A stretch of DNA of 54,826 nt from a virus (Duplodnaviria; Heunggongvirae; Uroviricota; Caudoviricetes): the IMG/VR virus record IMGVR_UViG_2687453585_000002; one strand, written 5' to 3'. This document shows positions 1,422-47,302 of this stretch, in pieces. The translations under genes and the position numbers were made by a program. Position 1 is the first letter of the stretch; the number at the start of each line of letters is the position of its first letter. The notes beneath the pieces are model-generated. The model was given only the letters and a program-made list of their open reading frames with translations, did not search any database and was not told the origin of the DNA.

Positions 1422-3893
1422 TTAAAAATCAGCCTGATTCGGGATCAGTTTTTGCCAGATAACTGAAACGTATTTTGCCTGGTAACGGGCGTCATCAAGT
1501 GCATTATGGCGCTCACCTTCGAATGGAATAGCCGTTCTGGCATCGAAGTCTATGGCTTTCCCCAGCTCAACGATTGTGCGTACATCGCGATCGTTGTAGT
1601 AACGCCATGGGCAGGGGATCCCCTGCCGTTCGTATGAACGGCGCAAAATCGTGTTTTCGAAGTTGGCTCCATTTCCCCAGACCTGAACAAAAAATTCACC
1701 GGAGTTTTCGTCGATAAATTCCCGCAATTGTAACAGTGCATCATCTAACGGGATTTCATCGGTCATAATGGCAGACTGCGCTTCACGTGATTGCTTCAGC
1801 CACCTTTTAATGACGTCACGATCAATGACTCCGCCAGCAGTTTCCAGATCGATAGTCTTACTAAATTCCGGTCCCATATCTCCGGTTTGCGGATCGAAAA
1901 ATATTGCATCTATTGAGATAATCGGGGCATCAGGATTTTTTCCCATGGTTTCAAGGTCAATCATCAGATGGTGCCACAACCTGCTGGTGGATGTGCTTTT
2001 ACGATGACTGTTCACCTTAATTAAGGGATTTGCTGTCTCGCCTATTTCATTATTGTCATTGGCATGTTGATCGCCTTCGGTGCACTCCTTGTTCGGGAGT
2101 CCGGCATTTTCTATTTCCTCTGGATCTTTTTCCCGGGCTTCATCCTGGCTTTCTTCGTTGAATGTCTCCTGGTAGGTTGCGTCACCCATCACTGCGCCAC
2201 AATCAGGGCAGTTACCACCACCAGTCTGATTGCATGCGGTACAAACTTTTTCCTCTTCCTGTTGCACGACTGGTTCAGGTTGTTTCGTTTCTGGCTCGTT
2301 TTGTAACGCATTTTGGCTGTTTTGTTCCGCTTTTTGGTCGTACTGTTCCGTTTCTGACTGGTTCTGGTGCACAGAATCGCGGGTTTCAATCCCCTTCACC
2401 CATTTCGGATCATTCGGGTCGCTAATCCCTTCAACAAATTCACCACGTGATGCAGCGAGCAACTTATTAGCGTCAGGCTGGCTGATACTGGCTGCCTGCA
2501 TAATTTTGTTTACTTCGTCAGCGGTAACTTTTACCAGGTCTGGTTGTGCGGTCGTGTCAGATGCATCAGTATTTTGTTGTGAACCTGTGTATGTGCCGTT
2601 TTTGCGGGCAAAATATTCTTCTTTCGTGATTTCAGTTGCCCCGGCAGCCAGCGCCTTATCCAGACCAGAAAGTTTGTTTGCGCGACCGTATTTTTCGCCA
2701 TCCTTGTCGGTGAAGAGGAAGTAGAACGGCCCCTCACGCTCTACAGATGGTTCGACTTCCACTTTGCATTCGGTTTTTTCGTTGTCCGGAATTGCCGTTT
2801 CCACTGCATCAGTTTCTGGTACTGGCGACGAGAGAGTATCAGTTGCGCTCTGATTTCTTCCTTCATCTTCAAACACGCCCTTTGTAGTCAGGTATTCAGT
2901 AATGTATTTGTTCAGTGCCACAGGGTCTTTGTGAATGTCGATCGGACGTTCACGGACAAGGCCAAAAATAGTCTGGCGGTCGTAGCGAAGGGCATCAGGC
3001 TGTTTGCGCATTGATGCCGAGATACGCTTCCAGTCTTCGCGGTCGTTGTCGATAACTTCATTTTTTGCCCAGCGATGGATGCTGCCGTCAATGTTTCCGG
3101 CATCCACATCACCAGGCCAGAGAGCGTAGGCCAGTTCGTCATCCAGTGTTTTCCATGTCTGCTTGTATTCGCGATGAATGGCAGCAATGACCGGGCTGAT
3201 TTTTCCTGTTGAATTTTCAGTGTACTGTTGATTGGCTCTGGCGCGGGCGAGATCAACAACAGACGTGTATTTTCCGGTTTCCTTGCGTTCACCTTCACGA
3301 CGTTTTTTCCAGATGCGCATCTCTGCCTGAATTTCGGGCCATTTGGCACCAGGCTTACATTTATGCTTAACCCACCCGATGGCATGCAGCTTAAGCTCCG
3401 GATACATGGCGTTAACTTCTGGCATTTTCATCAACGCTTCAACGATATGTCCGTCGAATGTTGCCATGTCTTCCTGCAACAATTCCTGTGCGCTAATAAC
3501 CATATCAACGGTGATGTTTTCACATGTGTCGAACTTAACCATGACAGCGTTCTGTACTTCAGGGGCCAGCTTGTCAAAAGTGACGTTCATCGGATCGGAT
3601 TCAGTCTCAACCGGGACAAAGGAAGCAGACTCCTCATCCCAGCGGTTTTCCTGCATATATTCAGCATCCCAGGAATCGAGGGCAGGGCGGGGTATACCGG
3701 GTTTATCCTCGCAGACAAGAAATTTATAAGCGCAGTCCTGAGCAGCCGGATAATGTTCCAGGAATTGCCAGTGAAATTTTGCGCGGGCGCGACGTTCATC
3801 ACCGGCTTCAATGGCAGTGGCTACAGCGACGGCACCTTCTTCCTTTATTGCCTGTTCGTCCGGAATGGCGGCGCAAATAAAGACTTTACTCAT
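1422..3893 (-). CDS. putative exonuclease, C-terminal DnaQ-like (DEDDh) 3'-5' exonuclease domain with large N-terminal domain
   Basis: 823-aa ORF; C-terminal 'LMIDLETMG...' and '...HNALDDARYQAKY' motifs resemble DEDDh exonucleases; internal CxxC...CxxC zinc-ribbon-like motif (CTACNQTGGGNCPDCG). Confidence 0.6.
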   Translation of the reverse strand: MSKVFICAAIPDEQAIKEEGAVAVATAIEAGDERRARAKFHWQFLEHYPAAQDCAYKFLVCEDKPGIPRPALDSWDAEYMQENRWDEESASFVPVETESDPMNVTFDKLAPEVQNAVMVKFDTCENITVDMVISAQELLQEDMATFDGHIVEALMKMPEVNAMYPELKLHAIGWVKHKCKPGAKWPEIQAEMRIWKKRREGERKETGKYTSVVDLARARANQQYTENSTGKISPVIAAIHREYKQTWKTLDDELAYALWPGDVDAGNIDGSIHRWAKNEVIDNDREDWKRISASMRKQPDALRYDRQTIFGLVRERPIDIHKDPVALNKYITEYLTTKGVFEDEGRNQSATDTLSSPVPETDAVETAIPDNEKTECKVEVEPSVEREGPFYFLFTDKDGEKYGRANKLSGLDKALAAGATEITKEEYFARKNGTYTGSQQNTDASDTTAQPDLVKVTADEVNKIMQAASISQPDANKLLAASRGEFVEGISDPNDPKWVKGIETRDSVHQNQSETEQYDQKAEQNSQNALQNEPETKQPEPVVQQEEEKVCTACNQTGGGNCPDCGAVMGDATYQETFNEESQDEAREKDPEEIENAGLPNKECTEGDQHANDNNEIGETANPLIKVNSHRKSTSTSRLWHHLMIDLETMGKNPDAPIISIDAIFFDPQTGDMGPEFSKTIDLETAGGVIDRDVIKRWLKQSREAQSAIMTDEIPLDDALLQLREFIDENSGEFFVQVWGNGANFENTILRRSYERQGIPCPWRYYNDRDVRTIVELGKAIDFDARTAIPFEGERHNALDDARYQAKYVSVIWQKLIPNQADF

Positions 3894-3985
3894 TTTGTTT
3901 TACCTCATTACAGATTTAAGGGTGAACAAATCCCTGCCATTGCTGGCATATAAGAATGAAACCGGATATTTATTACGGAACTGTT

Positions 3986-4177
3986 TTAAAGACCTGCCGG
4001 GATTTCGTTATTATCCTGGTGAATAACTTTATCGACCGGGTAACAGTTACCGGGAATTTTCTGTTCGGTTGCTGCAGTCACACACTCCTGCATTGTCCTG
4101 TGAACACTGACTGCAATATCAACTGGCTCTCCGGAAACAAGAAAAACTGTCAGAACAAGTGCAAATGCTGTATTCAT
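3986..4177 (-). CDS. small membrane protein, YdfD-like (Qin-type lysis-associated protein)
   Basis: 63-aa product from internal Met (MNTAFALVLTVFLVSGEP...) with N-terminal hydrophobic segment; start codon overlaps dicB stop; position downstream of dicB as in dicBF operons. Confidence 0.45.
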   Translation of the reverse strand: MNTAFALVLTVFLVSGEPVDIAVSVHRTMQECVTAATEQKIPGNCYPVDKVIHQDNNEIPAGL

Positions 4178-4362
4178 TGCCAGCATCCTTTTTGTATCGG
4201 ACGTAAACGGGCCAGCATTGAAAGAATGCATATTTTATTTAATAGCTCCCGTTCGTGTTTTCTCTTGTTAATGGCATCTTCAGTAAATACAGGGTTACTG
4301 ATATTGACACCAATTTCAAAACAACCTTCAGACGTATTAACGTTTGGTAATAACGTTTCCAT
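4174..4362 (-). CDS. dicB: cell division inhibitor DicB
   Basis: 62-aa product METLLPNVNTSEGCFEIGVNISNPVFTEDAINKRKHERELLNKICILSMLARL... closely matches DicB as I recall it; preceded by DicF sRNA sequence. Confidence 0.8.
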   Translation of the reverse strand: METLLPNVNTSEGCFEIGVNISNPVFTEDAINKRKHERELLNKICILSMLARLRPIQKGCWQ

Positions 4363-4531
4363 TATCGCGTCCTCAACAATGAATTTTGTGATGCGGTGCC
4401 TGGTGCCTCCAGGTGACGTTAACCAGTTAACAATTAACGCCGGATACAGAGAATCCACCCATAACACTGTTTTTGGTTTTAACTGTTCCGCGTGCGCTCA
4501 GCCGCATTCACCACATCACAAAATTCACTTT

Positions 4532-4589
4532 AAAAAGGGCGGCAGAGCAGTCACGGAGTAAAACTGATACCGCCAAACGTCACCAGAAA
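4532..4589 (-). ncRNA. dicF: DicF small regulatory RNA (ftsZ-targeting)
   Basis: minus-strand sequence TTTCTGGTGACGTTTGGCGGTATCAGTTTTACTCCGTGACTGCTCUGCCGCCCTTTTT matches DicF as recalled; ends in GC hairpin plus T-run; located between ydfC-like and dicB as in Qin. Confidence 0.75.
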
Positions 4590-4927
4590 ATTGATAACAG
4601 AGGGCGTTGCAGCGGAGTTGTCACTTAAGCGTATGGTCAACCTGACAACCCGGTGTCCTCAACGGAGGAAGGAATAACCCCGCCATACTTACCGCCGCGC
4701 CATTTCGCGGAGTGCCACAACCGGAAGCGCACGGTCGAACTAAATTTAACGACACCGTACAGAGAGACCAATTTCGCCGTGCGCTTTCGCTTTATGCCCT
4801 GACTTTTCAGGGACATATCCTTTCAGTAAACTGTCAGTGCCGGATGTTCACCCGTGTCCGGCGCACGCACTCCACCTGACCCGTGGAGAACTCCTTAATT
4901 ACCAACCTTAGCTTCGTTGGTTAGCTA

Positions 4928-5146
4928 TTAACGCGGGTATGTAACCATTCTGGCAATGCTTAATGCCGCTGCTTTTTCCAGCCTGGTGATATCCTGCTCC
5001 AGAGCGGACAGATTTTCAGCCTGCTTAGTCCTGGCTTCATTGGCCCATTTCAGATCCTGCGCTGCATTAATTTTCTGGCGCATCCACTCATAAAGTTCAT
5101 CATCGGTATAGTCTGGCGCGATGATGACGGGTTCTCGTTTCTGCAT
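4928..5146 (-). CDS. hypothetical protein, YdfC-like
   Basis: 72-aa ORF in dicBF-type operon position upstream of dicF. Confidence 0.45.
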   Translation of the reverse strand: MQKREPVIIAPDYTDDELYEWMRQKINAAQDLKWANEARTKQAENLSALEQDITRLEKAAALSIARMVTYPR

Positions 5147-11185: not shown

Positions 11186-11341
11186 ATGAAGCAGCAAAAG
11201 GCGATGTTAATCGCCCTGATCGTCATCTGTTTAACCGTCATAGTGACGGCACTGGTAACGAGGAAAGACCTCTGCGAGGTACGACTCCGAACCGGCCAGA
11301 CGGAGGTCGCTGTCTTCACAGCTTACGAACCTGAGGAGTAA
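11186..11341 (+). CDS. hok: Hok/Gef-family type I toxin (HokD/RelF-like)
   Basis: 51-aa product MKQQKAMLIALIVICLTVIVTALVTRKDLCEVRLRTGQTEVAVFTAYEPEE matches HokD nearly exactly as recalled; single TM helix. Confidence 0.85.
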   Translation: MKQQKAMLIALIVICLTVIVTALVTRKDLCEVRLRTGQTEVAVFTAYEPEE

Positions 11342-15711: not shown

Positions 15712-15787
15712 GGCCCTTTAGCTCAGTGGTGAGAGCGAGCGACTCATAATCGCCAGGTCGCTGGTTCAAATCCAGCAAGGGCCACCA
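15712..15787 (+). tRNA. tRNA with CAU anticodon (Ile2/Met type)
   Basis: acceptor stem GGCCCTT/AAGGGCC, GTTCAAATCC T-loop, anticodon loop CTCATAA, 3' CCA. Confidence 0.8.
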
Positions 15788-15887
15788 TCACAAACCGCCA
15801 TTAGCTTATCAGGAAGAGCAGACGACACGATAACAGGGTTGTTGGTGCGGGGGCGGGTCCCCGATGGCGGTCCATTATCGGTATTCA

Positions 15888-15964
15888 GCGTTGTTAGCTC
15901 AGCCGGACAGAGCAATTGCCTTCTAAGCAATCGGTCACTGGTTCGAATCCAGTACAGCGCGCCA
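15888..15964 (+). tRNA. tRNA-Arg (UCU)
   Basis: acceptor stem GCGTTGT/ACAGCGC, T-loop GGTTCGAATCC, anticodon loop CTTCTAA, 3' GCCA. Confidence 0.8.
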
Positions 15965-16875: not shown

Positions 16876-17211
16876 TTATGGACTTTGTTGTTTTAGTCCA
16901 TAAGGACATATTTGCAGAGTGCAACGGTTATTAAAGCATTCATTCAATACGTTATCTGTATTTGTAGGGCATTCCTGGCTGTTTTTGATTAAATTCCAGA
17001 ATGTTTTATTGAATGGTACTACGTTGTAAATGGTTACAGGTAGCACTTTGTTATTGAGCATGATGCCTGTGTGAGTCAGTGTAAATATACTTTCAGGAGG
17101 TAAGAAAGCATCCGATTGATACCAGATTATTAATTTTATTTTACTCCATATGACTGAAAAAGATATTCCGCATGATGGCTGGATAACTGTATCAATCACA
17201 ATCCACTTCAT
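16876..17211 (-). CDS. hypothetical cysteine-containing protein (AT-rich cargo)
   Basis: 111-aa ORF with AAGGAA RBS 7 nt upstream of ATG; 4 Cys in C-terminal third; visibly AT-rich relative to flanks. Confidence 0.45.
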
Positions 17212-17471
17212 TTAGTTTCCTTGTTTATGCCTTGCTGGTGATGTTCTGAAAAGTATAAATGATATTTTTGATTGTAAACCATAGAGCAGAATTATTTTTC
17301 TGATGTTGTTTATTGTTTATTTAAATGCAGGGTGGTTTATATCTCGTCTTGTAGTTTATCCATGCATATCTGCTTGATGATGAGGTTTTTATTTAAGGTA
17401 TGGTTTTGTGTTTTTTCTGTATTACATGTCAGGTATTTTAAAGAATCATTTTTCAGATGGTGGAAAGAACC

Positions 17472-19325
17472 ATGGCATTTAAACACTATGATGTTGTCAG
17501 GGCGGCGTCGCCGTCAGATCTTGCGGAAAAGCTGACACATAAACTGAAAGAGGGCTGGCAGCCGTTTGGTAGTCCGGTGGCCATAACCCCTTATACCCTG
17601 ATGCAGGCGATTGCAGCAGAAGGTGATGTGGTCGTCAGTGGTGCAACTGAGCCGGAGTGGTACTACGTCATCGTACTGGCCGGGCAATCCAATGCCATGG
17701 CTTACGGTGAAGGGCTTCCGCTTCCGGATTCATACGATGCGCCCCATCCGCGCATTAAGCAACTGGCCCGTCGTAACACAGTGACTCCCGGTGGTGAAGT
17801 ATGCGTATTTAACGACATCATTCCTGCTGACCATTGTCTGCATGATGTTCAGGATATGAGTACGATTAACCATCCCCGGGCTGACCTGAGCAAAGGGCAG
17901 TACGGCTGTGTCGGACAGGGCTTACATATTGCCAAAAAACTGCTTCCGTATATCCCTAATAATGCGGGGATCCTGCTGGTACCATGCTGTCGTGGTGGTT
18001 CGGCATTCACCCAGGGCACGGAGGGGACATTCAGCGAGTCCACGGGGGCCAGTCAGGATTCGGCTCGCTGGGGAGTGGGTAAGCCGTTATATCAGGATCT
18101 GCTTTTCCGCACGAAGGCAGCATTGCAGAAAAACCCGAAAAACGTTTTGCTGGCGATATGCTGGATGCAGGGGGAATTCGATATGACGAATGCCAGTTAC
18201 GCCCAGCAGCCAGCAGCATTTCTTGCAATGGTACAGCAGTTCCGTGCTGACCTTGCCGGGCTGGCGGCGCAGTGTCACGGTGGAAGTCCGGCATCAGTCC
18301 CCTGGATTTGTGGCGACACGACATACGCGTGGAAACAAGAACACGGTACGCAATATGAAGTGGTATATGGTGCATATAAAGGTAAAGAATCCCAGCAGAT
18401 TTATTTTGTTCCCTTTATGACCGATGGTAGCGGAGTTAATACACCGACAAACAACCCGTCAGAAGATCCTGATATTGCCGGGTCTGGTTATTACGGTTCG
18501 GCATCCCGAACGAACAAAAACTGGGTATCATCAAATCGCCCGACGCATTTCAGCTCATGGGCGCGTCGTGGCATTATTCCCGATCGTATGGCAACTGCTA
18601 TTCTGAACGTAGCCGGTCGCACCTTAGCCTTCATTAGTGGTAAGGCACCGGAAATCAAACCCTCGCCCGGCGGCGACACGCCATCGGGGCCGTCTGAAGA
18701 TGCATCCGTACGCACAATCTCCCTGTTGCCGACAGCCGGAGATGCTGCTGCGCAGGGCTGGAGCATTAAGAATGGCGGAATTCAGTTGTCAGATGGTGTA
18801 TTTAAGATCACCAAGCAGAGCAATAAAGCCTGGTCCCTGACGCGCCCGGTGGATGACGCAGTCTCCCTGCTGACACGGGGTGGCAGACTGAGCTGTAAGT
18901 TTCGACTGTCAGGCGCACTGACCAACAATCAGTTCGGTCTGGGAATTTATCTGTATACCGATGTAGCGTTACCTGACGTCGTGGCGATGACCGGGACTGG
19001 TAACCCGTTCCTGATGTCGTTCTTCACCCAGACCACAGACGGCAAACTGAATCTGATGCATCACAAGAAAGCAGGAAACACAAAGTTGGGCGAGTTCGGG
19101 AATTACAGTAACGACTGGCAGACGCTGGAGCTGGTGTTCACCGCCGGCAGTGCCACGGTTACTCCGAAACTGAATGGAGTGGCTGGCCCGGCATTCCAGG
19201 TCATAAAAGACAGTCTGACACTGGGGCTGAATGCGCTGACGCTGACGGATATTACCAAAAATGCAACGTATGGCGTTGAGATAGAAAGTCTGGTGCTGGA
19301 GATAAATGCACCGGCATCATCATAA
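17472..19325 (+). CDS. NanS-p-like sialate O-acetylesterase family protein
   Basis: GQSN motif (VIVLAGQSNAMAYGEG) typical of SASA-type esterases; ~620 aa; sits between Q/tRNAs and lysis genes as in Stx phages; start at ATG 17472 preferred over 17457. Confidence 0.7.
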   Translation: MAFKHYDVVRAASPSDLAEKLTHKLKEGWQPFGSPVAITPYTLMQAIAAEGDVVVSGATEPEWYYVIVLAGQSNAMAYGEGLPLPDSYDAPHPRIKQLARRNTVTPGGEVCVFNDIIPADHCLHDVQDMSTINHPRADLSKGQYGCVGQGLHIAKKLLPYIPNNAGILLVPCCRGGSAFTQGTEGTFSESTGASQDSARWGVGKPLYQDLLFRTKAALQKNPKNVLLAICWMQGEFDMTNASYAQQPAAFLAMVQQFRADLAGLAAQCHGGSPASVPWICGDTTYAWKQEHGTQYEVVYGAYKGKESQQIYFVPFMTDGSGVNTPTNNPSEDPDIAGSGYYGSASRTNKNWVSSNRPTHFSSWARRGIIPDRMATAILNVAGRTLAFISGKAPEIKPSPGGDTPSGPSEDASVRTISLLPTAGDAAAQGWSIKNGGIQLSDGVFKITKQSNKAWSLTRPVDDAVSLLTRGGRLSCKFRLSGALTNNQFGLGIYLYTDVALPDVVAMTGTGNPFLMSFFTQTTDGKLNLMHHKKAGNTKLGEFGNYSNDWQTLELVFTAGSATVTPKLNGVAGPAFQVIKDSLTLGLNALTLTDITKNATYGVEIESLVLEINAPASS

Positions 19326-19475
19326 AAAGTGAGCCAGTCAAATGGAAGGTATCGTTAAACTCACCGGTAGTGTCAGTGGGTCGTCTGAGATGCCTGCATG
19401 AGTTATCAGAGCCATCAGTACTTAACTGGTGGCTTTTTTTATTGTTGTCAGCTTCCGGATAACGGGAGACGGGGT

Positions 19476-19691
19476 ATGTACCAGATGGAAAAAATCACAA
19501 CAGGTGTGTCATACACCACGTCAGCGGTGGGAACGGGCTACTGGTTCCTGCAGTTGCTGGACAGGGTTTCCCCGTCTCAGTGGGCGGCAATAGGCGTGCT
19601 GGGGAGTCTGCTGTTTGGGCTGCTGACATATCTGACTAACCTGTATTTCAAAATCAGAGAGGACCGTCGTAAGGCGGCACGGGGAGAGTAA
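19476..19691 (+). CDS. pinholin, phage 21 S-like (class II holin)
   Basis: 71 aa, dual-start MYQM, two TM segments, C-terminus [22 protein letters not shown] matching S21 as recalled. Confidence 0.85.
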
Positions 19692-19695
19692 TTCA

Positions 19696-20040
19696 ATGAC
19701 TCAAAACTATGAACTGATTGTGAAAGGGATCCGCAATTTTGAGAATAAAGTTACGGTAACTTTAGCGTTACGGGACAAAAAACGCTTTGACGGTGAAATT
19801 TTTGACCTGGACATCTCGCTGGACCGTGTTGAAGGTGCCGCGCTGGAGTTTTATGAGGCAGCAGCCAGAAGGAGCATCAGACAGGTCTTCCTGGATGTTG
19901 CTGCCGGGTTATGTGAAGGGGATGAGCAGTCGCCGGAAAAGCGCCCCGTAATTTTAGAGGCGCAGGATGTGTTGATAACCTACAGAGGAAAACTACCGGG
20001 AATAATTACGGGTTCTCTGAAGAGTCCGCCGAAATGGTAA
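19696..20040 (+). CDS. hypothetical protein (lysis-cassette insert)
   Basis: 114-aa ORF 4 nt after holin stop with GGAG RBS; no recognisable motif. Confidence 0.4.
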   Translation: MTQNYELIVKGIRNFENKVTVTLALRDKKRFDGEIFDLDISLDRVEGAALEFYEAAARRSIRQVFLDVAAGLCEGDEQSPEKRPVILEAQDVLITYRGKLPGIITGSLKSPPKW

Positions 20041-20278
20041 TTTTACCAGCATATTTTTCATCCAGTAATACAGCAAGCCGCCTGAAAGAGTCTTGTTGTT
20101 CCTGAGACCATTTGGGATTGCATGATTCAAACTGGATTGATGCCAGCGTTGATTGCATCTGTTCCCTTGGAATTGAGAATGCCAGATATGAGAAGGCGAC
20201 GGTAAGGGTATTCACGTCTTCCCGAAGCCTGGAAATGCTGTCGAGCAACTCCTGTAGAGAAATGGTGTTATTGTCCAT
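20006..20278 (-). CDS. hypothetical protein (lysis-cassette insert)
   Basis: 90-aa ORF, GAGGA RBS; convergent with and overlapping previous ORF by 35 nt; abuts IS left end. Confidence 0.4.
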   Translation of the reverse strand: MDNNTISLQELLDSISRLREDVNTLTVAFSYLAFSIPREQMQSTLASIQFESCNPKWSQEQQDSFRRLAVLLDEKYAGKITISADSSENP

Positions 20279-20343
20279 AAATAATCCTCATGATTGTATT
20301 GACCTGTTGAAGTGGTTTACTGAATTTGGCCACCTGAACAGAG

Positions 20344-21527
<1,184 letters not shown>

Positions 21528-21636
21528 CTCGGTGGCCAGTTTTTGTTGACCACTTCATGTTAGCAGCCTGAGGCAACAGGCTGGAACTGATAAACATATC
21601 CAGGGCTCAGAAACCGATAAATCCTGATAAATATCC

Positions 21637-22170
21637 ATGAACGCAAAAATCAGATACGGCCTGTCGGCTGCCGTTCTGGCGCTGATTGCCGCTGGTGCGC
21701 CTGCGCCTGACATTCTCGACCAGTTTCTGGATGAAAAGGAAGGTAACCACACCACGGCATACCGTGATGGCGCGGGTATCTGGACCATCTGCCGCGGTGC
21801 CATCCTGGTGGATGGCAAACCTGTCGTTCCGGGCATGAAGTTGTCGAAGGAAAAATGCGACCGGGTTAACGCCATTGAGCGTGATAAGGCGCTGGCATGG
21901 GTGGAGAAAAACATCAAAGTGCCATTGACCGAACCCCAGAAAGCGGGGATCGCGTCATTCTGTCCGTACAACATTGGTCCCGGTAAGTGTTTCCCGTCGA
22001 CGTTTTACAGACGAATTAATGCAGGTGATCGCAGGGGAGCATGCGAAGCGATTCGCTGGTGGATTAAGGACGGTGGCAGAGACTGCCGTATTCGCTCAAA
22101 TAACTGTTACGGTCAGGTATTCCGTCGTGACCAGGAGAGCGCGCTGGCGTGCTGGGGAATCGACAGATAA
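21637..22170 (+). CDS. SAR endolysin (lysozyme, GH24-like)
   Basis: 177 aa; N-terminal weakly hydrophobic signal-anchor-release segment LSAAVLALIAAGA; lysozyme-like core; pairs with pinholin. Confidence 0.8.
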   Translation: MNAKIRYGLSAAVLALIAAGAPAPDILDQFLDEKEGNHTTAYRDGAGIWTICRGAILVDGKPVVPGMKLSKEKCDRVNAIERDKALAWVEKNIKVPLTEPQKAGIASFCPYNIGPGKCFPSTFYRRINAGDRRGACEAIRWWIKDGGRDCRIRSNNCYGQVFRRDQESALACWGIDR

Positions 22171-22263
22171 GCAGAATATTTTGCTGAAAAATGAGGTTGG
22201 CCAACGCGGGCGGATAACACGAAGTCCTGTGAACTGGCAAAACCTAAGTGAATAAAAGTAAAA

Positions 22264-22299
22264 ACCCCGTTTGTTGGCAGCAAGCGGGGTTTTGTTTTT
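22264..22299 (+). terminator. terminator-like hairpin after endolysin
   Basis: CCCCG...CGGGG stem followed by TTTTGTTTTT. Confidence 0.45.
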
Positions 22300-22364
22300 A
22301 TGGCAGTAAGCTATGGGAGGCTGCCTTGATTGATTTTAGCAAACTGATTAGGGAGTTGCGACTC

Positions 22365-22460
22365 ATGATTAGTCAATTACCAAACTGGAAATTTTTGCTG
22401 GTCTGGAGCATCCCTTTTTTATGGGTAGTATCCCAGTTAATTGTGGCAATTAAGGGGTAG
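22365..22460 (+). CDS. small hydrophobic peptide (31 aa)
   Basis: MISQLPNWKFLLVWSIPFLWVVSQLIVAIKG; single predicted TM; found by manual translation. Confidence 0.3.
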   Translation: MISQLPNWKFLLVWSIPFLWVVSQLIVAIKG

Positions 22461-22462
22461 CT

Positions 22463-22594
22463 ATGTCAGACAAACTCATAACGCCGGCAAAGGTCCTGTG
22501 TGTGATTGTCGGTATTTCATTTTCACTAATGCTGGTTGCTCTTTTTCTGTCCCTCGCCTGGGTGATGTTGTCTTCGTCGGGGCTGCTGGGGTGA
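22463..22594 (+). CDS. small hydrophobic peptide (43 aa)
   Basis: MSDKLITPAKVLCVIVGISFSLMLVALFLSLAWVMLSSSGLLG; AAGGGG RBS 6 nt upstream. Confidence 0.4.
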   Translation: MSDKLITPAKVLCVIVGISFSLMLVALFLSLAWVMLSSSGLLG

Positions 22595-22713
22595 CAGTGA
22601 CTGATGACATCAGCAGAGCGCTGGCTTTTGCTATTAAGTGGGTGGCTGTTGGTATTGCTGTGTCTCCGATGCTGTATGGGCTGGCAAAACTGGTCATTGC
22701 GCTGAAATCGTGA
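22591..22713 (+). CDS. small hydrophobic peptide (~40 aa)
   Basis: GTG start overlapping previous stop (GTGA coupling); ...ISRALAFAIKWVAVGIAVSPMLYGLAKLVIALKS. Confidence 0.3.
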   Translation: MTVTDDISRALAFAIKWVAVGIAVSPMLYGLAKLVIALKS

Positions 22714-22724
22714 ACTTTAAAAAG

Positions 22725-22811
22725 ATGAGTGCTGAACTTATTCGGGCAATGGCATTTGCCATTCGTATTGTGGCCATTGCTGTTCTGGTCTGGGCAATCC
22801 GTTGGTGGTGA
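22725..22811 (+). CDS. small hydrophobic peptide (28 aa), paralog of preceding peptide
   Basis: [28 protein letters not shown]; similar to RALAFAIKWVAVGIAV of neighbour; stop 1 nt before Rz start. Confidence 0.3.
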
Positions 22812-22812
22812 T

Positions 22813-23307
22813 ATGAACCGTGTTCTGTGTGTGGTGATTATTGTCATGCTGGTAGCCTGTGGTGTGCTTAGTCTGGGGCTGAATCATTACCGCGATAACG
22901 CCATCACCTACAAAGCGCAGCGCGATAAAAAAGTCAGTGAGCTGAAACTGGCGAATGCCACTATTACTGACATGCAGCAGCGCCAGCGAGATGTCGCTGC
23001 GCTTGATGCCAGATACACGAAGGAATTAGCCGATGCGAGAGCTGAAAATGAAACTCTGCGCGCTGATGTTGCCGCTGGTCGTAAGCGCCTGCGGGTCAAC
23101 GCCACCTGCCCCGGTACCGTGCGTGAAGCCACCGGCACCTCCAGCGTGGATAATGCAACCGGCCCCCGACTGGCAGACACCGCTGAACGGGATTATTTCA
23201 TCCTCAGAGAACGGTTGATGACAATGCAGAAGCAGCTGGAAGGGGCGCAGGAATATATCCGCACTCAGTGCACTAAGCTGGCTTTTTATTATCCGGAGGA
23301 TACATGA
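22813..23307 (+). CDS. Rz: i-spanin Rz
   Basis: 164 aa from ATG 22813; N-terminal TM, coiled-coil rest; embedded Rz1 in +1 frame. Confidence 0.8.
23048..23218 (+). CDS. Rz1: o-spanin Rz1 (lipoprotein) embedded in Rz
   Basis: lipobox LVVSAC, proline-rich mature region; wholly within Rz in alternate frame. Confidence 0.75.
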
Positions 23308-23717: not shown

Positions 23718-23918
23718 TCATTTCTCGTTATTTGTCATGCTGGCCGGGCGCAGATGCGTTGCATCTGTTGCCAGCCTTCTCCTGCAGGCTTCAATAACCC
23801 ACGCTGAAAAGTTACCGGACCCTTTATGCTCAAGGGCGATGTTGATCTGTTCAATTATGTGATTGGGGAAACGGATATTGCGGGTTGTGGTTCTGCGGGT
23901 CCGGTTTTTCGATGACAT
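23718..23918 (-). CDS. ribbon-helix-helix-like small protein (YlcI/DUF3950-like)
   Basis: 66 aa from internal ATG with AAGGA RBS; IRFPNHIIEQINIALEHKGSGNFSAWVIEACRRRL resembles RHH fold pattern. Confidence 0.45.
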   Translation of the reverse strand: MSSKNRTRRTTTRNIRFPNHIIEQINIALEHKGSGNFSAWVIEACRRRLATDATHLRPASMTNNEK

Positions 23919-44116: not shown

Positions 44117-44496
44117 ATGCGTAAATTATGTGCTGTTATTTTGTCCGCAGTAGTCTGGCAGGTCGCCGCTGCTACGCCAGCGAGTGCAGCAGAACATCAG
44201 TCCACGCTGAGCGCGGGGTATCTCCATGCCTCGACGAACGTTCCCGGTAGTGATGATCTGAACGGGATTAACGTGAAATACCGTTATGAGTTTACGGACG
44301 CGCTGGGGCTGATTACGTCCTTCAGTTATGCCAATGCTGAGGATGAGCAAAAAACGCGCTACAGCGATACCCGCTGGCATGAAGATTCCGTGCGTAACCG
44401 CTGGTTCAGCGTGATGGCGGGGCCGTCTGTACGCGTGAATGAATGGTTCAGCGCGTATGCGATGGCGGGTGTGGCTTACAGCCGTGTGTCGACTTT
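44117..44496 (+). pseudogene. lom: lom-like outer membrane protein gene, 5' fragment (interrupted by IS)
   Basis: signal peptide plus Ail/Lom-family beta-barrel sequence up to ...AYSRVSTF, then IS terminal repeat. Confidence 0.75.
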
Positions 44497-44689
44497 TGCG
44501 TATTTTCATGAAAGGAGATCACTCAATAACTTCCATCGAGATCGGGTAATAACATTTGAACAGATCGCTGAATAACATCGATGGAGATCACTTTTGACTC
44601 ATTTTGTTATTCAGTGATCTCCATCAATGTTATTGGAACTTCACAGGTGTGTTGATCTGTATCTTTTGCCATTCCGGTAAAGGATACCT

Positions 44690-46231
44690 ATGCCAACAGT
44701 TCCAATTTCTATGAGAAAACTTAAAGAAATTCTTAGGCTTAAATACGGTGTTGGACTCAGCCATCGACAAATTGGTCGTAGTCTTGCAATCTCCCCTTCC
44801 GTTGTATCCAGATATGCTAATCGGGCGGCTCAACTTGGCATAAAGCAGTGGCCCTTACCTACAGGATGGGATGATACAAAACTAAAACATGCGTTCCTTC
44901 AGACCCAGGTTAAGATGAAGAAGCACTCTCTGCCTGACTGGGCTACAGTACACCGGGAACTGCGTAATAAATGCGTGACGCTGCAGCTACTCTGGGAAGA
45001 ATACTGTGAGCGTAATCCAGGCGGTTTTTACAGCTATAACCATTACTGCCGGATGTACCGTGAATGGCTCAAAACCACTTCACCATCAATGCGTCAGGTA
45101 CATAAAGCTGGCGAAAAACTTTTCGTTGATTACTGTGGACCTACCGTTGGCGTTACCGACCCTGAGACCGGAGAAATAAGAACTGCTCAGGTCATCGTAG
45201 CTGTTCTCGGGGCATCAAGTTACACATGGGCAGAGGCCACCTGGTCTCAGCAGCTTGAAGACTGGGTGATGAGTCATGTTCGCTGCTTCCAGTGGTTGGG
45301 TGGCGTTCCTGAACTTGTTGTTCCGGACAATCTGAAAAGCGCCACATCCAGGGCATGTAAGTATGATCCTGACGTTAACCCTACCTACCAGCAGATGCTT
45401 GAGCATTATAATGTCGCAGTTTTGCCTGCGCGGCCACGTAAACCGAAAGATAAAGCCAAAGCTGAAGTTGGCGTTCAGGTTGTTGAACGCTGGATCATGG
45501 CCCGAATCAGGCATGAGATCTTCTACAGCCTTGCATCGCTTAATCAGCGCATTCGGGAGTTGCTGGAAAGACTGAATAACAAAATAATGCAGAAGTTGGG
45601 TTATTCACGTGCAGAACTCTTCATCCAGCTTGATAAACCCGCACTGAAGCCTCTTCCTGAAGCCAGTTACAGTTACACCCTGGTGAAGAAAGTCAGAGTT
45701 CATGCCGATTACCACGTGGAAATCGACAAACATTACTACTCGGTTCCATGTTCGCTGTTAGGCCAGCAACTGGAAGCATGGATCTCCGGAGAACTGGTAA
45801 GACTCTTCAATCAGGGGCAGGAGGTTGCTGTGCACCCGCGCAAGCGTACTTATGGCTACAGTACCCGCAACGAGCACATGCCTGAAGCTCATCGACAGCA
45901 TGCCACCTGGACGCCAGAGCGTCTTCTGGAATGGGCGGGGCACATAGGCAGTGAAACTCATAGTTATGTGCTTCATATACTGAACTCTCGTCCACATCCG
46001 GAACAAAGCTATCGCTTCTGCCTTGGACTCCTGAACCTTCATAAAAAATACAGTAAAGCCAGACTTAATGCAGCATGTGCAAGAGCTCTGAAAACAAAGG
46101 TATGGCGTCTGTCAGGTATTAAATCGATCCTGGAAAAAGGTCTGGATAAACAACCTGTTCAGGATCCAAAACCAGATCTGTTATCCACGATGGAACACGA
46201 AAACGTACGCGGCAGTGAGTATTACCACTGA
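44690..46231 (+). CDS. istA: IS21-family transposase IstA
   Basis: 513 aa; N-terminal HTH; DDE core. Confidence 0.8.
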   Translation: MPTVPISMRKLKEILRLKYGVGLSHRQIGRSLAISPSVVSRYANRAAQLGIKQWPLPTGWDDTKLKHAFLQTQVKMKKHSLPDWATVHRELRNKCVTLQLLWEEYCERNPGGFYSYNHYCRMYREWLKTTSPSMRQVHKAGEKLFVDYCGPTVGVTDPETGEIRTAQVIVAVLGASSYTWAEATWSQQLEDWVMSHVRCFQWLGGVPELVVPDNLKSATSRACKYDPDVNPTYQQMLEHYNVAVLPARPRKPKDKAKAEVGVQVVERWIMARIRHEIFYSLASLNQRIRELLERLNNKIMQKLGYSRAELFIQLDKPALKPLPEASYSYTLVKKVRVHADYHVEIDKHYYSVPCSLLGQQLEAWISGELVRLFNQGQEVAVHPRKRTYGYSTRNEHMPEAHRQHATWTPERLLEWAGHIGSETHSYVLHILNSRPHPEQSYRFCLGLLNLHKKYSKARLNAACARALKTKVWRLSGIKSILEKGLDKQPVQDPKPDLLSTMEHENVRGSEYYH

Positions 46232-46242
46232 TACGGGATCCA

Positions 46243-46992
46243 ATGATGAATCATCTTTACGAACAACTGACCGCACTTAAACTCACCGGCTTCCGTGATG
46301 CGCTTAAAAAGCAACTTGCTCAACCGGGCACATACCAGGAGCTGGGCTTCGAAGAACGCCTGTCATTACTGACAGCAGAAGAACTAACCTGCCGTGAAAA
46401 CAGGAAGGCAGAGCGTCTGATCAAACATGCACGGTTCAGACTTAATGCTGAGTTATCAAAGCTGGATTATCGTAACAATAGAGGGCTGGACAGGGCCCTC
46501 ATCCGTTCACTCAGTCAGGGAAACTGGTTAACCCTGAAACAAAATATTTTACTGACCGGGGCCACCGGCAGCGGTAAAACGTTCCTGGCATGTGCACTTG
46601 GTCATAATGCCTGCCGACAGGGATACAAGGTCTACTATTATCGCCTTAAAGCGCTGATGGAACAGTGCTATCAGGGGCATGCTGATGGAAGATACAGCAA
46701 ACTTTTGACCAGGCTGAATAATAGCGATCTGCTGCTTCTGGATGACTGGGGGCTGGAACCTCTCTCATCAGAACAGCGTAGCGACCTGCTGGAAATAGTG
46801 GATCTGATGTACCAACGAGGCTCAATCATCGTAGTGAGCCAGTTGCCGGTGGAAAACTGGTACAAAATGATCGGAGACTCCACACATGCGGATGCCATCC
46901 TAGATCGACTGGTTCATGGCAGTATCAAGATCGAACTTAAAGGAGAATCAATGCGGAAAATACAATCTCCGTTGACCGAAGGAGATCAGTGA
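46243..46992 (+). CDS. istB: IS21-family helper ATPase IstB
   Basis: Walker A GATGSGKTFLA and Walker B LLLLDDWG. Confidence 0.85.
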   Translation: MMNHLYEQLTALKLTGFRDALKKQLAQPGTYQELGFEERLSLLTAEELTCRENRKAERLIKHARFRLNAELSKLDYRNNRGLDRALIRSLSQGNWLTLKQNILLTGATGSGKTFLACALGHNACRQGYKVYYYRLKALMEQCYQGHADGRYSKLLTRLNNSDLLLLDDWGLEPLSSEQRSDLLEIVDLMYQRGSIIVVSQLPVENWYKMIGDSTHADAILDRLVHGSIKIELKGESMRKIQSPLTEGDQ

Positions 46993-47078
46993 AGGTAATT
47001 TAAAAACGGTTCTGTGAAAGTGACACGAACCGATCTCCATCGATGTTACTCACCGATCTCCTTCACGGTAATACGCAA

Positions 47079-47302
47079 CTTTCTCCGGGGATTATCTCCG
47101 CGTAACTGACAACAAGGGGAAAACGCACGATGTGCTGACCGGAAGTGATGACGGTCGCCACAGCAACACGTCTCTGGCGTGGGGGGCTGGCGTGCAGTTT
47201 AACCCGACCGAATCCGTGACCATTGACCTTGCTTATGAAGGTTCCGGTAGTGGCGACTGGCGAACGGATGCATTTATTGTTGGTATCGGATACCGTTTCT
47301 GA
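47079..47302 (+). pseudogene. lom: lom-like gene, 3' fragment
   Basis: in-frame continuation ...SGDYLRVTDNKGKTHDVLTGSDDGRHSNTSLAWGAGVQFNPTESV...GIGYRF* after the IS. Confidence 0.75.

What the first reader, a model, noticed from the sequence alone, without database searches (positions are those of the whole stretch)
19692..20307. Two convergent, overlapping ORFs wedged between pinholin and endolysin
In phage-21-type lysis cassettes the SAR endolysin follows the pinholin directly. Here a ~600-bp block encoding a 114-aa plus-strand ORF (4 nt after holin stop) and a 90-aa minus-strand ORF with a strong RBS separates them, followed by an IS. The tail-to-tail overlap of 35 nt suggests a mutually regulating pair such as toxin-antitoxin, lysis-timing modulator or defence cargo. 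Neither protein has a motif I recognise.
Basis: partly seen in the sequence, partly recalled or inferred. Interest (0 to 1): 0.6.

Follow-up and report, generated by a model that had tools for sequence, protein, structure and literature searches.

The report
YdfR plus reverse moron gene
The two facing genes between the holin and the endolysin are a common prophage accessory gene (ydfR) and a small backwards-pointing add-on ("moron") gene of unknown function, not a toxin-antitoxin pair; this layout recurs in many related phages.

Summary
A 114-aa plus-strand ORF (19696-20040) and a 90-aa minus-strand ORF (20006-20278) overlap tail to tail by 35 nt. They lie between an S21-type holin and the endolysin, and a 1250-bp IS3-family element follows.

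- ORF1 is YdfR (DUF1327). It sits routinely between holin and endolysin in E. coli prophages, including K-12 Qin.
- ORF2 is a real gene of a small uncharacterised family (phrog_2411, "Ybl58"). It lies on a low-GC ~270-bp insert present in about 1,200 of 5,426 E. coli genomes.
- Each gene occurs without the other. ORF2 relatives sit in tail operons, plasmids and chromosomes with unrelated neighbours.
- The overlap is a by-product: the last nine, non-conserved codons of ORF2 read into antisense ydfR.

The block fits a recurrent architecture also seen in HK022 (gp22/gp23), ES18 (gp24/gp25) and Stx2 phage 86. A forward small gene faces a reverse, hypervariable small gene. That reverse gene lies behind a conserved ~95-nt (up to ~170-nt) structured leader that Rfam does not list. 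The window keeps only a remnant of this leader, cut off from ORF2 by the IS.

Function remains inferred. YdfR may modulate RNase E. ORF2 is probably a lysogen-expressed accessory protein.

The parts
19476..19691 (+). S21-type class II holin (pinholin), 71 aa
   Evidence: Pfam PF04971 Phage_holin_2_1, 9e-33. PGAP annotates it 'class II holin family protein' in the identical record.
19696..20040 (+). ydfR (DUF1327), 114 aa. Residues 1-111 are conserved; the last 3 codons lie beyond a mosaic junction.
   Evidence: Pfam PF07041, 7e-43. 81% identity to K-12 Qin YdfR over residues 1-74. All family variants diverge right after '...GSLKTPP'. AF2 model: three beta strands plus a long helix in residues 5-73, with a low-confidence C-terminus.
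20006..20278 (-). ORF2: 90-aa small helical protein of the phrog_2411 / 'Ybl58' family (WP_000369850.1). It is the reverse-oriented moron cargo.
   Evidence: phrog_2411, 1e-58. Purifying selection and conserved length. Family alignment down to 24% identity. Only the sense frame is open family-wide. AF2 model: four helices, pLDDT 68, residues 78-90 disordered.
20006..20040 (.). 35-nt tail-to-tail overlap of ydfR and ORF2
   Evidence: Coordinates. ORF2 residues 82-90 are read from the antisense of ancestral ydfR sequence. They are non-conserved in the family and predicted disordered.
20036..20307 (.). Low-GC insert absent from ORF2-less prophages. It carries ORF2 codons 1-81, the SD (20289->20285) and a conserved TACAAT box (20298->20293).
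   Evidence: Clean indel against L002. GC is 0.43, against 0.54-0.55 for holin and endolysin. SD and TACAAT are conserved in five alleles.
20308..21557 (+). IS3-family insertion sequence, annotated ISEc52 family; IS911-like from my own recall. 1250 bp, with TGT target duplications at 20305-20307 and 21558-21560.
   Evidence: Pfam HTH_Tnp_1 and rve. Ends and duplication read. The element is absent from the otherwise identical ST131 locus L001. PGAP name.
21564..21583 (-). Hairpin CAGCCTG-N6-CAGGCTG, read as a collapsed remnant of the leader's UCAGCC/GGCUGA helix. The IS now separates it from ORF2.
   Evidence: Sequence. The centroid fold keeps this hairpin. It aligns to the TCAGCC part of the leader. 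Other alleles keep a hairpin here with different sequence.
21574..21650 (-). Remnant of the 5' part of the conserved moron leader. It includes a putative ORF2 promoter (-35 TTTATC 21621->21616, -10 TATGTT 21598->21593) and lies back to back with the start of R.
   Evidence: nhmmer with a profile of 24 leaders gives window 21630->21579 at E=0.2 (weak). The equivalent position is hit in L001 and L004-L007 at E 0.15-0.38. The same slot scores E=1.6e-14 in Stx2 phage 86 and E=3.8e-5 in BP-4795. The promoter assignment is an inference; the consensus scan did not call it.
21637..22170 (+). Endolysin R, 177 aa
   Evidence: Pfam Phage_lysozyme, 9e-24. Annotated 'lysozyme'.

Best explanation
The block is add-on ('moron') DNA in the late lysis operon of a complete lambdoid E. 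coli prophage. It has two independent parts.

(1) ydfR points forward and is co-transcribed with S and R from the Q-dependent late promoter. It encodes a cytoplasmic DUF1327 protein. Its N-terminal beta-beta-beta-alpha domain is 81% identical to the K-12 YdfR fragment reported to bind the catalytic half of RNase E and to co-purify RNA. The likeliest role (inferred) is to modulate RNase E action on RNA late in infection, not to form or time the membrane hole.

(2) ORF2 points backwards on a low-GC insert and has its own ribosome-binding site and upstream control region. Like other reverse-oriented morons, it is most likely made in the lysogen while the late operon is silent. Q-driven late transcription would then run over it head-on and switch it off (inferred). 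Its product is a small four-helix cytoplasmic protein from a fast-diverging family carried by prophages, plasmids and islands. I take it to be a lysogen-benefit protein, probably involved in phage-phage or host conflict; the biochemical activity is unknown.

The 35-nt overlap is a by-product of where the insert joins ydfR. In this window an IS sits 29 bp upstream of the ORF2 start. It cuts ORF2 off from its leader and promoter and separates S-ydfR from R-Rz, so ORF2 is probably poorly expressed here.
For: Shown by tool results:
- Family assignments.
- The same block without the IS in ST131.
- A clean indel against ORF2-less prophages.
- The insert or its paralogues in 1,207 of 5,426 E. coli genomes.
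- A mosaic junction after YdfR residue 111 in all variants.
- Low GC of the insert.
- Purifying selection on ORF2 and a family-wide open frame.
- ORF2 relatives reverse-oriented inside tail operons next to unrelated partners.
- The same slot in Stx2 phage 86 holds a different reverse gene behind the canonical leader, E=1.6e-14.
- HK022 gp22/gp23 and ES18 gp24(DUF1327)/gp25 are annotated as morons with the same convergent layout and leader.
- IS position and target duplication.

From the literature:
- K-12 YdfR residues 1-72 bind RNase E 1-597 in two-hybrid and pull-down assays, RNA co-purifies, and overproduction gives no growth defect (PMC13232886).
- Window YdfR is 81% identical to K-12 YdfR over residues 1-74.
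- The moron definition: own promoter and terminator, deviant GC, expression from the repressed prophage (PMC3594210).
Against: - No expression data exist for either gene in this prophage.
- The ORF2 promoter is only a weak consensus match (7 of 12) and the scan did not call it.
- No convincing terminator follows ORF2.
- The leader remnant in the window scores only E=0.2 on its own.
- The RNase E link comes from one study that used overproduced, tagged K-12 protein. Overproduction changed few transcripts.
- ORF2 relatives beside adhesin genes and between dinI and bssS show the family is not restricted to phage late operons.
Confidence: 0.6

Rival explanations
1. The two ORFs are a cognate, mutually regulating pair (toxin-antitoxin or similar). 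The overlap would provide antisense control.
For: The convergent overlap is conserved in all five E. coli alleles examined. A DUF1327 gene also faces a reverse small gene in ES18 and Stx2 phage 86.
Against: Each gene occurs widely without the other. Partners of ORF2 relatives are unrelated. Cargo facing YdfR differs between phages. The overlap covers only the disordered, non-conserved tail of ORF2. Overproducing K-12 YdfR is not toxic. PADLOC has no hit.
Confidence: 0.06
2. YdfR, possibly with ORF2, is a lysis accessory that tunes holin or endolysin action, that is, a lysis-timing modulator.
For: ydfR always sits between S and R and is co-oriented with them. A genetic screen cited in PMC13232886 linked ydfR to envelope integrity.
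Against: YdfR is predicted to be a soluble beta/alpha protein; I saw no hydrophobic segment in the sequence, though no topology predictor was run. From my own knowledge, phage 21 lyses with S, R and Rz alone. A DUF1327 gene sits in the ES18 tail operon, far from the lysis genes. In phiSTEC1575-Stx2k the holin-ydfR-ORF2 block precedes an entirely different lysis cassette.
Confidence: 0.15
3. ORF2 is a superinfection-exclusion or anti-phage defence (or anti-defence) protein expressed from the prophage. This is a more specific version of the cargo role in the main explanation.
For: It is reverse-oriented and moron-like. It belongs to a set of hypervariable small proteins in the same cassette position: 31 cargo proteins fall into 19 BLASTP families. 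HK97 gp15 is a precedent for a tail-operon moron that excludes phages (PMC3594210).
Against: It has no PADLOC, Pfam or PDB match. I saw no membrane segment, unlike gp15-type exclusion proteins (by eye; no predictor run). Some relatives lie in non-phage contexts.
Confidence: 0.25
4. ORF2 is an antisense artefact; only ydfR is a gene.
For: The mirror plus-strand frame shows equally low dN/dS. No function or domain is known for ORF2.
Against: A conserved 90-aa frame, ATG and SD. Protein-level relatives at 24-40% identity in unrelated loci. The mirror frame is interrupted by 2-4 stops in most of those relatives.
Confidence: 0.03

Closest known systems
YdfR / DUF1327 (PF07041), e.g. K-12 Qin prophage ydfR between its holin (annotated essD) and rrrQ
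   Same: ORF1 is a member: Pfam 7e-43, and 81% identity to K-12 YdfR over residues 1-74. It holds the same position between an S21-type holin and the endolysin.
   Different: The C-terminus differs. Residues 75-114 are unrelated to the K-12 protein, and the last three codons lie in the ORF2 insert. K-12 ydfR overlaps rrrQ directly and has no reverse gene.
Morons of lambdoid phages (Juhala et al. 2000; HK022 gp22/gp23 'srb', ES18 gp24/gp25)
   Same: The DNA is extra relative to relatives, has deviant GC, and lies inside a late operon. A forward small gene converges on a reverse small gene. ES18 gp24 is itself DUF1327.
   Different: The slot differs: S-R here, I-J in HK022, M-L in ES18. The cargo family differs too. 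ORF2 versus the HK022 gp23 family gives hhalign probability 54% and E 1.3e-4, which is only suggestive. The window keeps just the 5' part of the leader that HK022 and ES18 have in full.
Stx2-converting phage 86 S - ydfR(268 aa) - gp06(reverse) - R
   Same: Identical slot and layout. The leader's 5' part is nearly the same sequence as in the window.
   Different: gp06 is unrelated to ORF2 (hhalign probability 0.2%). YdfR carries a long C-terminal extension. The leader is complete.
Type II toxin-antitoxin modules
   Same: Two small adjacent genes on a mobile element.
   Different: The genes converge rather than forming an operon. There is no co-occurrence, no toxicity of the YdfR homologue, and no family match.

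Membership tests
DUF1327 / YdfR family (ORF1) | Match to Pfam PF07041 above the gathering score | tested here: met
   145.2 bits against a cut-off of 25, E 7e-43, covering residues 1-111.
DUF1327 / YdfR family (ORF1) | Binding to the RNase E N-terminal half and co-purifying RNA (reported for K-12 YdfR only) | not testable with these tools
   Only sequence identity to the binding fragment could be checked: 81% over residues 1-74 (PMC13232886).
phrog_2411 / 'Ybl58' small-protein family (ORF2) | Full-length profile match and conserved core motif (..L.VAF.YLAF..P......L....ES.N..) | tested here: met
   phrog_2411 at 1e-58 over positions 1-90 of 90. Alignment A3 with 16 relatives; Y31, L32 and E51 are invariant.
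Moron (Juhala et al. 2000) | Extra DNA absent from otherwise collinear relatives | tested here: met
   A ~270-bp indel against L002, with the flanks aligned. BP-4795 and K-12 Qin lack it.
Moron (Juhala et al. 2000) | Base composition different from the neighbours | tested here: met
   Insert GC is 0.43, against 0.537 for the holin and 0.551 for R.
Moron (Juhala et al. 2000) | Own promoter and terminator; expression from the repressed prophage | tested here: inconclusive
   The SD is conserved. A TACAAT box and a TTTATC-17-TATGTT candidate exist, but neither passes the consensus scan. No clear terminator was found. Expression cannot be tested here.
Leader-driven reverse moron cassette (defined here from HK022, ES18, Stx2-86 and ~25 Enterobacterales prophage loci) | Conserved leader with UCAGCC/GGCUGA helix, inner covarying hairpin and the ATGGCTGATTA box upstream of the reverse gene | tested here: not met
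   No ATGGCTGATTA box anywhere in the window at up to 3 mismatches. Only the 5' part aligns, at E=0.2. The window carries a reduced derivative at best. More distant ORF2-family members do have the full leader.
Toxin-antitoxin system | Obligate co-occurrence of the two genes | tested here: not met
   Each gene is found without the other.
Toxin-antitoxin system | One component toxic when expressed alone | not testable with these tools
   The only evidence is indirect: overproducing K-12 YdfR gave no growth defect. ORF2 is untested.
Known anti-phage defence systems (PADLOC-DB 2.0) | Profile match to a defence protein | tested here: not met
   No family at E<=1 for either protein.

The most novel reading that the evidence does not exclude
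ORF2 and ydfR would be one instance of a widespread class of two-gene 'convergent moron cassettes' in Enterobacterales siphophage late operons. I found no description of this class in Rfam or in the full-text searches I ran.

In this reading, a conserved outer frame flanks a hypervariable middle.
- One side of the frame is the 5' part of a forward gene. This is either DUF1327 or an MTLEQRVxxLEK coiled coil.
- The other side is a ~95-170-nt structured leader RNA. It has an invariant UCAGCC/GGCUGA helix, a strongly covarying inner hairpin, a possible pseudoknot and a MADYL*/MAD* mini-ORF.
- The middle is the forward gene's C-terminus plus a reverse small helical protein.

The conserved ends would let phages swap cargo by homologous recombination. 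The leader would control cargo translation or stability in the lysogen. Head-on late transcription would couple cargo shut-off to induction. The cargo proteins would form one fast-evolving superfamily engaged in phage-phage or phage-host conflict.
Probability: 0.3. Interest if true: 0.65.

Novelty: new member of a known kind. Interest (0 to 1): 0.35.

Why it matters
For the window itself the result is a clarification. The block is not a new lysis regulator or toxin-antitoxin system. It is a routinely annotated accessory gene (ydfR) plus a moron gene, and in this copy an IS has crippled the moron.

Two things make the locus worth remembering.
- YdfR sits in the lysis cassette of most E. coli lambdoid prophages. 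It now has a first biochemical lead, RNase E binding. Testing that in a phage context would address what a near-universal late gene of Stx and other prophages does.
- ORF2 led to a conserved structured leader and a cassette-like layout shared by HK022, ES18, Stx2 phage 86 and many Enterobacterales prophages. The leader is absent from Rfam. If it is a real cis-regulatory RNA in front of swappable lysogen-expressed proteins, it would be a compact handle for finding and studying prophage accessory functions.

Tried and rejected
- Pfam, NCBIfam, PADLOC and PDB sequence searches for ORF2 found nothing. The only blip was NCBIfam 'anti-silencing Mip' at E 0.037 over 15 residues, which I disregard.
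- dN/dS alone could not pick the coding strand, because the mirror frame scores equally well. Stops in distant relatives settled it.
- A possible shared C-terminal motif between YdfR (..SLKSPPKW) and the L009 partner (..DLKKPPSY) was rejected. BLASTP and PHROGs found no similarity.
- I first read TTGCCT-19-TACAAT as the ORF2 promoter. I now prefer the leader-homologous TTTATC-17-TATGTT; neither is proven.
- A terminator downstream of ORF2 was not supported. The fold is no better than shuffled sequence, z -0.71.
- Rfam had no match for the window region or for four leader loci.
- The search for related loci with the diverse alignment failed for lack of a conserved stretch.
- Literature searches for ybl58, WP_000369850, phrog_2411 and HK022 srb found nothing relevant.

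Full report
**1. What is in the sequence**

The window is a complete lambdoid prophage. Over its first 50 kb, the stretch compared, its coordinates coincide with E. coli AR_451, NZ_CP030337.1 from 1038519.

Around the finding the gene order is as follows.

| Feature | Coordinates | Strand | Note |
|---|---|---|---|
| SASA/DUF1737 esterase | 17457-19325 | + | |
| S21-type holin | 19476-19691 | + | |
| ORF1 | 19696-20040 | + | 114 aa |
| ORF2 | 20006-20278 | - | 90 aa |
| IS3-family element | 20308-21557 | + | 1250 bp, 3-bp TGT target duplication |
| Endolysin | 21637-22170 | + | |
| Spanin region | downstream | + | |

The SD is GAGGA, 6 nt before the ATG.

**2. ORF1 is YdfR**

- ORF1 matches Pfam DUF1327 at 7e-43.
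- It is 81% identical over residues 1-74 to YdfR of the K-12 Qin prophage. There the order is holin (annotated essD)-ydfR-rrrQ.
- A megablast of holin plus block finds a match in 4,750 of 5,426 complete E. coli genomes. Every record sampled down the ranking, apart from the four lowest rows that match only the IS end, carries a YdfR-family CDS, nearly always beside the holin.
- The premise that the endolysin normally follows the pinholin directly is therefore true, as far as I recall, of phage 21 itself. It is not true of E. coli prophages in general.

All YdfR variants share residues 1-111 (...ITGSLKTPP). They diverge immediately afterwards into KW*, ESQP*, EF*, LA*, or extensions of 65-150 residues. 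This marks a fixed mosaic junction at about window position 20035.

The only functional study I found is PMC13232886.
- K-12 YdfR residues 1-72 bind the catalytic half of RNase E in two-hybrid and pull-down assays.
- RNA co-purifies with the protein.
- Overproduction changes few transcripts and causes no growth defect.

**3. ORF2 is a real gene on an insert**

- Compared with ORF2-less prophages (L002) there is a clean ~270-bp indel. It runs from the last codons of ydfR to about 50 nt upstream of R.
- The insert has GC 0.43, against 0.54-0.55 for its neighbours.
- Five alleles with dS up to 0.42 keep the 90-aa frame, ATG and SD, with dN/dS 0.24-0.43.
- The mirror plus-strand frame scores equally well, as expected when third positions coincide. 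That frame is broken by 2-4 stops in most distant relatives, while the ORF2 frame is always open.
- A profile search of 1.84 billion representatives found only 19 relatives. They align almost without gaps down to 24% identity.
- There is no Pfam, NCBIfam, PADLOC or PDB match.
- The AF2 model is a four-helix bundle at pLDDT 68 with a disordered tail at residues 78-90. Fold matches are generic helical hairpins.
- The insert or its paralogues occur in 1,207 of 5,426 E. coli genomes, but in only 3 of 50,697 phage records.

**4. The overlap is a by-product**

The mosaic junction lies at about 20035, so ORF2 codons 1-81 are in the insert. Codons 82-90 are read from the antisense of pre-existing ydfR sequence until the first stop. 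Those residues are the non-conserved, disordered tail. Nothing suggests the overlap is itself a selected regulatory device. Convergent transcription will still make the two mRNAs complementary at their 3' ends.

**5. The two genes are not a cognate pair**

- ydfR occurs without ORF2 in L002, BP-4795, O157 prophages and K-12 Qin.
- ORF2-family genes occur without ydfR in several settings:
  - reverse-oriented between tail genes M and L (L009, L020);
  - near the terminase genes (L015);
  - downstream of an AIDA-type autotransporter on 73 mostly conjugative plasmids, IncF in the one examined (L022);
  - beside iha (L023);
  - between dinI and bssS (L018);
  - in Sodalis ligni (L012).
- Their convergent neighbours are unrelated to YdfR and to one another.
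- In Stx2 phage 86 the same ydfR-R slot holds an unrelated reverse gene.
- In phiSTEC1575-Stx2k the holin-ydfR-ORF2 block is followed by a different lysis cassette.

**6. A recurrent architecture**

The distant ORF2 relatives share a conserved sequence upstream of their start codons.

- An exact-pattern scan of one genome per species recovered it mixed with chance matches. About 28 of the first 120 stretches were leader-like (all Enterobacterales among the titles shown): Xenorhabdus, Photorhabdus, Yersinia, Pantoea, Citrobacter, Enterobacter, Serratia, Pectobacterium, Rahnella and Dryocola.
- Of 30 loci checked against the window's phage proteins, about two thirds place the leader and its gene on the opposite strand inside or beside lambda-like late genes. 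Positions are between M and L, between I and J, near Rz, or near terS.
- The genes behind the leader are diverse. 31 cargo proteins fall into 19 BLASTP families. Many share a '..ALK.AF..L' pattern. The HK022 gp23 family aligns to the ORF2 family with hhalign probability 54% and E 1.3e-4, which is suggestive only.
- RNAalifold predicts an invariant long-range helix UCAGCC/GGCUGA enclosing a hairpin. In that hairpin, 6 of 8 pairs show compensatory double changes. Overall 92.7% of cells are paired, and 0 of 500 shuffles reach the observed covariation score. Slid controls are far lower.
- A third helix, GAGGG/CCUCU, would make a pseudoknot but does not vary.
- Rfam has no match.
- The element is present in HK022 upstream of gp23 'srb', which converges on and overlaps gp22; both are annotated as moron products. 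It is also in ES18 upstream of gp25, which converges on gp24, a DUF1327 protein (Pfam 3.8e-7). It occurs as well in mEp213, mEp043, HK633 and others.
- Forward partners often begin MTLEQRVxxLEK and have variable C-termini.

**7. Link back to the window**

An nhmmer profile of 24 leaders was searched against the relevant loci.

| Target | Position | E-value |
|---|---|---|
| Stx2 phage 86 | ydfR-R slot, upstream of reverse gp06 | 1.6e-14 |
| BP-4795 | cargo-free ydfR-R spacer | 3.8e-5 |
| Window | 21630->21579 | 0.2 |
| L001, L004-L007 | equivalent position | 0.15-0.38 |

- The window hit lies just upstream of R, on the far side of the IS.
- The window sequence TTTATCAGGATTTATCGGTTTCTGAGCCCTGGATATGTT...TCCAGCC is nearly the same as the 5' part of the Stx2-86 leader.
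- The hairpin CAGCCTG-N6-CAGGCTG (21564-21583) looks like a collapsed version of the long-range helix.
- The ATGGCTGATTA box is absent from the window.

I therefore read ORF2 as cargo in a standard cassette slot with a reduced leader. By homology its promoter would be -35 TTTATC (21621->21616) and -10 TATGTT (21598->21593). This is an inference: the consensus scan does not call it.

The IS lies inside the presumed 5' UTR, 29 nt from the ATG. ORF2 is probably disconnected from its control region in this copy.

**8. Mechanism, with its status**

Shown:
- gene identities;
- the insert boundaries;
- independence of the two genes;
- the recurrent convergent layout;
- the IS disruption.

From the literature:
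- RNase E and RNA binding by the K-12 homologue's conserved N-terminal domain;
- general moron behaviour (PMC3594210).

Inferred:
- YdfR acts late on RNase E-dependent RNA turnover rather than on the membrane.
- ORF2 is expressed in lysogens and silenced by head-on late transcription.
- ORF2's product serves the lysogen, possibly in phage-phage or host conflict.

**9. Verdict**

The toxin-antitoxin and lysis-timing readings are largely not supported. The 'cargo' reading is the closest to what the evidence shows.

Both genes are already annotated in more than a thousand genomes, as 'YdfR family protein' and 'hypothetical protein'. The layout is a known kind (moron), so the finding itself is of modest interest. 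The conserved structured leader and the cassette-like exchange of small reverse genes, seen in related loci, are the most novel things encountered and deserve separate study.

Noticed in passing
Related loci L009, L013, L015, L020, L040, L047, L052, L069, L076-L079, L084, L085, L089, L093, L094, L097, L100, L109, L114, L115, L117, L118, L122, L125, L130, L132, L134, L143; HK022 (L147 ~1830-1932), ES18 (L148 ~1830-1930), Stx2 phage 86 (L025 3961-4051, minus strand): A conserved structured leader of ~95 nt (up to ~170 nt) lies upstream of reverse-oriented small genes in prophage late operons. Its consensus is ..TATCAGGATGTT..CTGGTTATGTT..TTCAGCCC-[covarying hairpin]-..GAGGGATGGCTGATTACCTCTG..AAGGAAA..ATG. 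It has an invariant UCAGCC/GGCUGA helix, an inner hairpin with 6 of 8 compensatory pairs, a possible pseudoknot and a mini-ORF MADYL*/MAD*. It has no Rfam match.
   Followed up: partly
Same related loci, forward strand of the late operon: Many forward genes that converge on the leader-driven cargo begin with a conserved MTLEQRVxxLEK coiled-coil motif and have variable C-termini. In ES18 the forward partner is instead DUF1327. In Xenorhabdus and Photorhabdus it is a ~92-105-aa protein whose sequence pattern looks YdfR-like by eye, next to the lysis genes.
   Followed up: partly
window 19408-19436 (+): A strong terminator-like hairpin (12-bp stem followed by a T-run) lies between the esterase gene and the holin, inside the late operon. 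Presumably Q-modified polymerase reads through it.
   Followed up: no
window 44117-47302: The lom/ail-family gene downstream of J is split by an IS21-family element (ISEc12, istA/istB). This is the second IS insertion in the prophage.
   Followed up: no
window 16876-17211 (-), 23718-23918 (-), 11186-11341 (+): Other accessory genes sit in the prophage. iraM (anti-adapter) and a YlcI/YnfO-family gene are reverse-oriented within the late region. The prophage also carries hokD, dicB-ydfABC, a YdaT-family gene, queH and a DNA methyltransferase, and tRNA-Ile and tRNA-Arg at 15712-15964.
   Followed up: no
L022 (IncF plasmid NZ_CP132984.1) and L023 (NZ_CP074701.1): Paralogues of ORF2 (about 64% protein identity on the plasmids, 72% DNA identity beside iha) sit directly downstream of a glycosylated AIDA-type autotransporter on 73 mostly conjugative E. 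coli plasmids (IncF in the one examined). Another sits next to the adhesin/siderophore receptor gene iha in an island.
   Followed up: partly
L004 (phiSTEC1575-Stx2k) 3051-5069: This Stx2k phage carries the S21-type holin, ydfR and ORF2, followed by a second, different lysis set: two holin-like genes and an M15 peptidase. The first holin may therefore be redundant or a relic.
   Followed up: no
window 22170-22813: Three very small annotated ORFs (28-51 aa, several with hydrophobic stretches) lie between the endolysin and the spanin gene. In Stx phages this slot holds ant.
   Followed up: no
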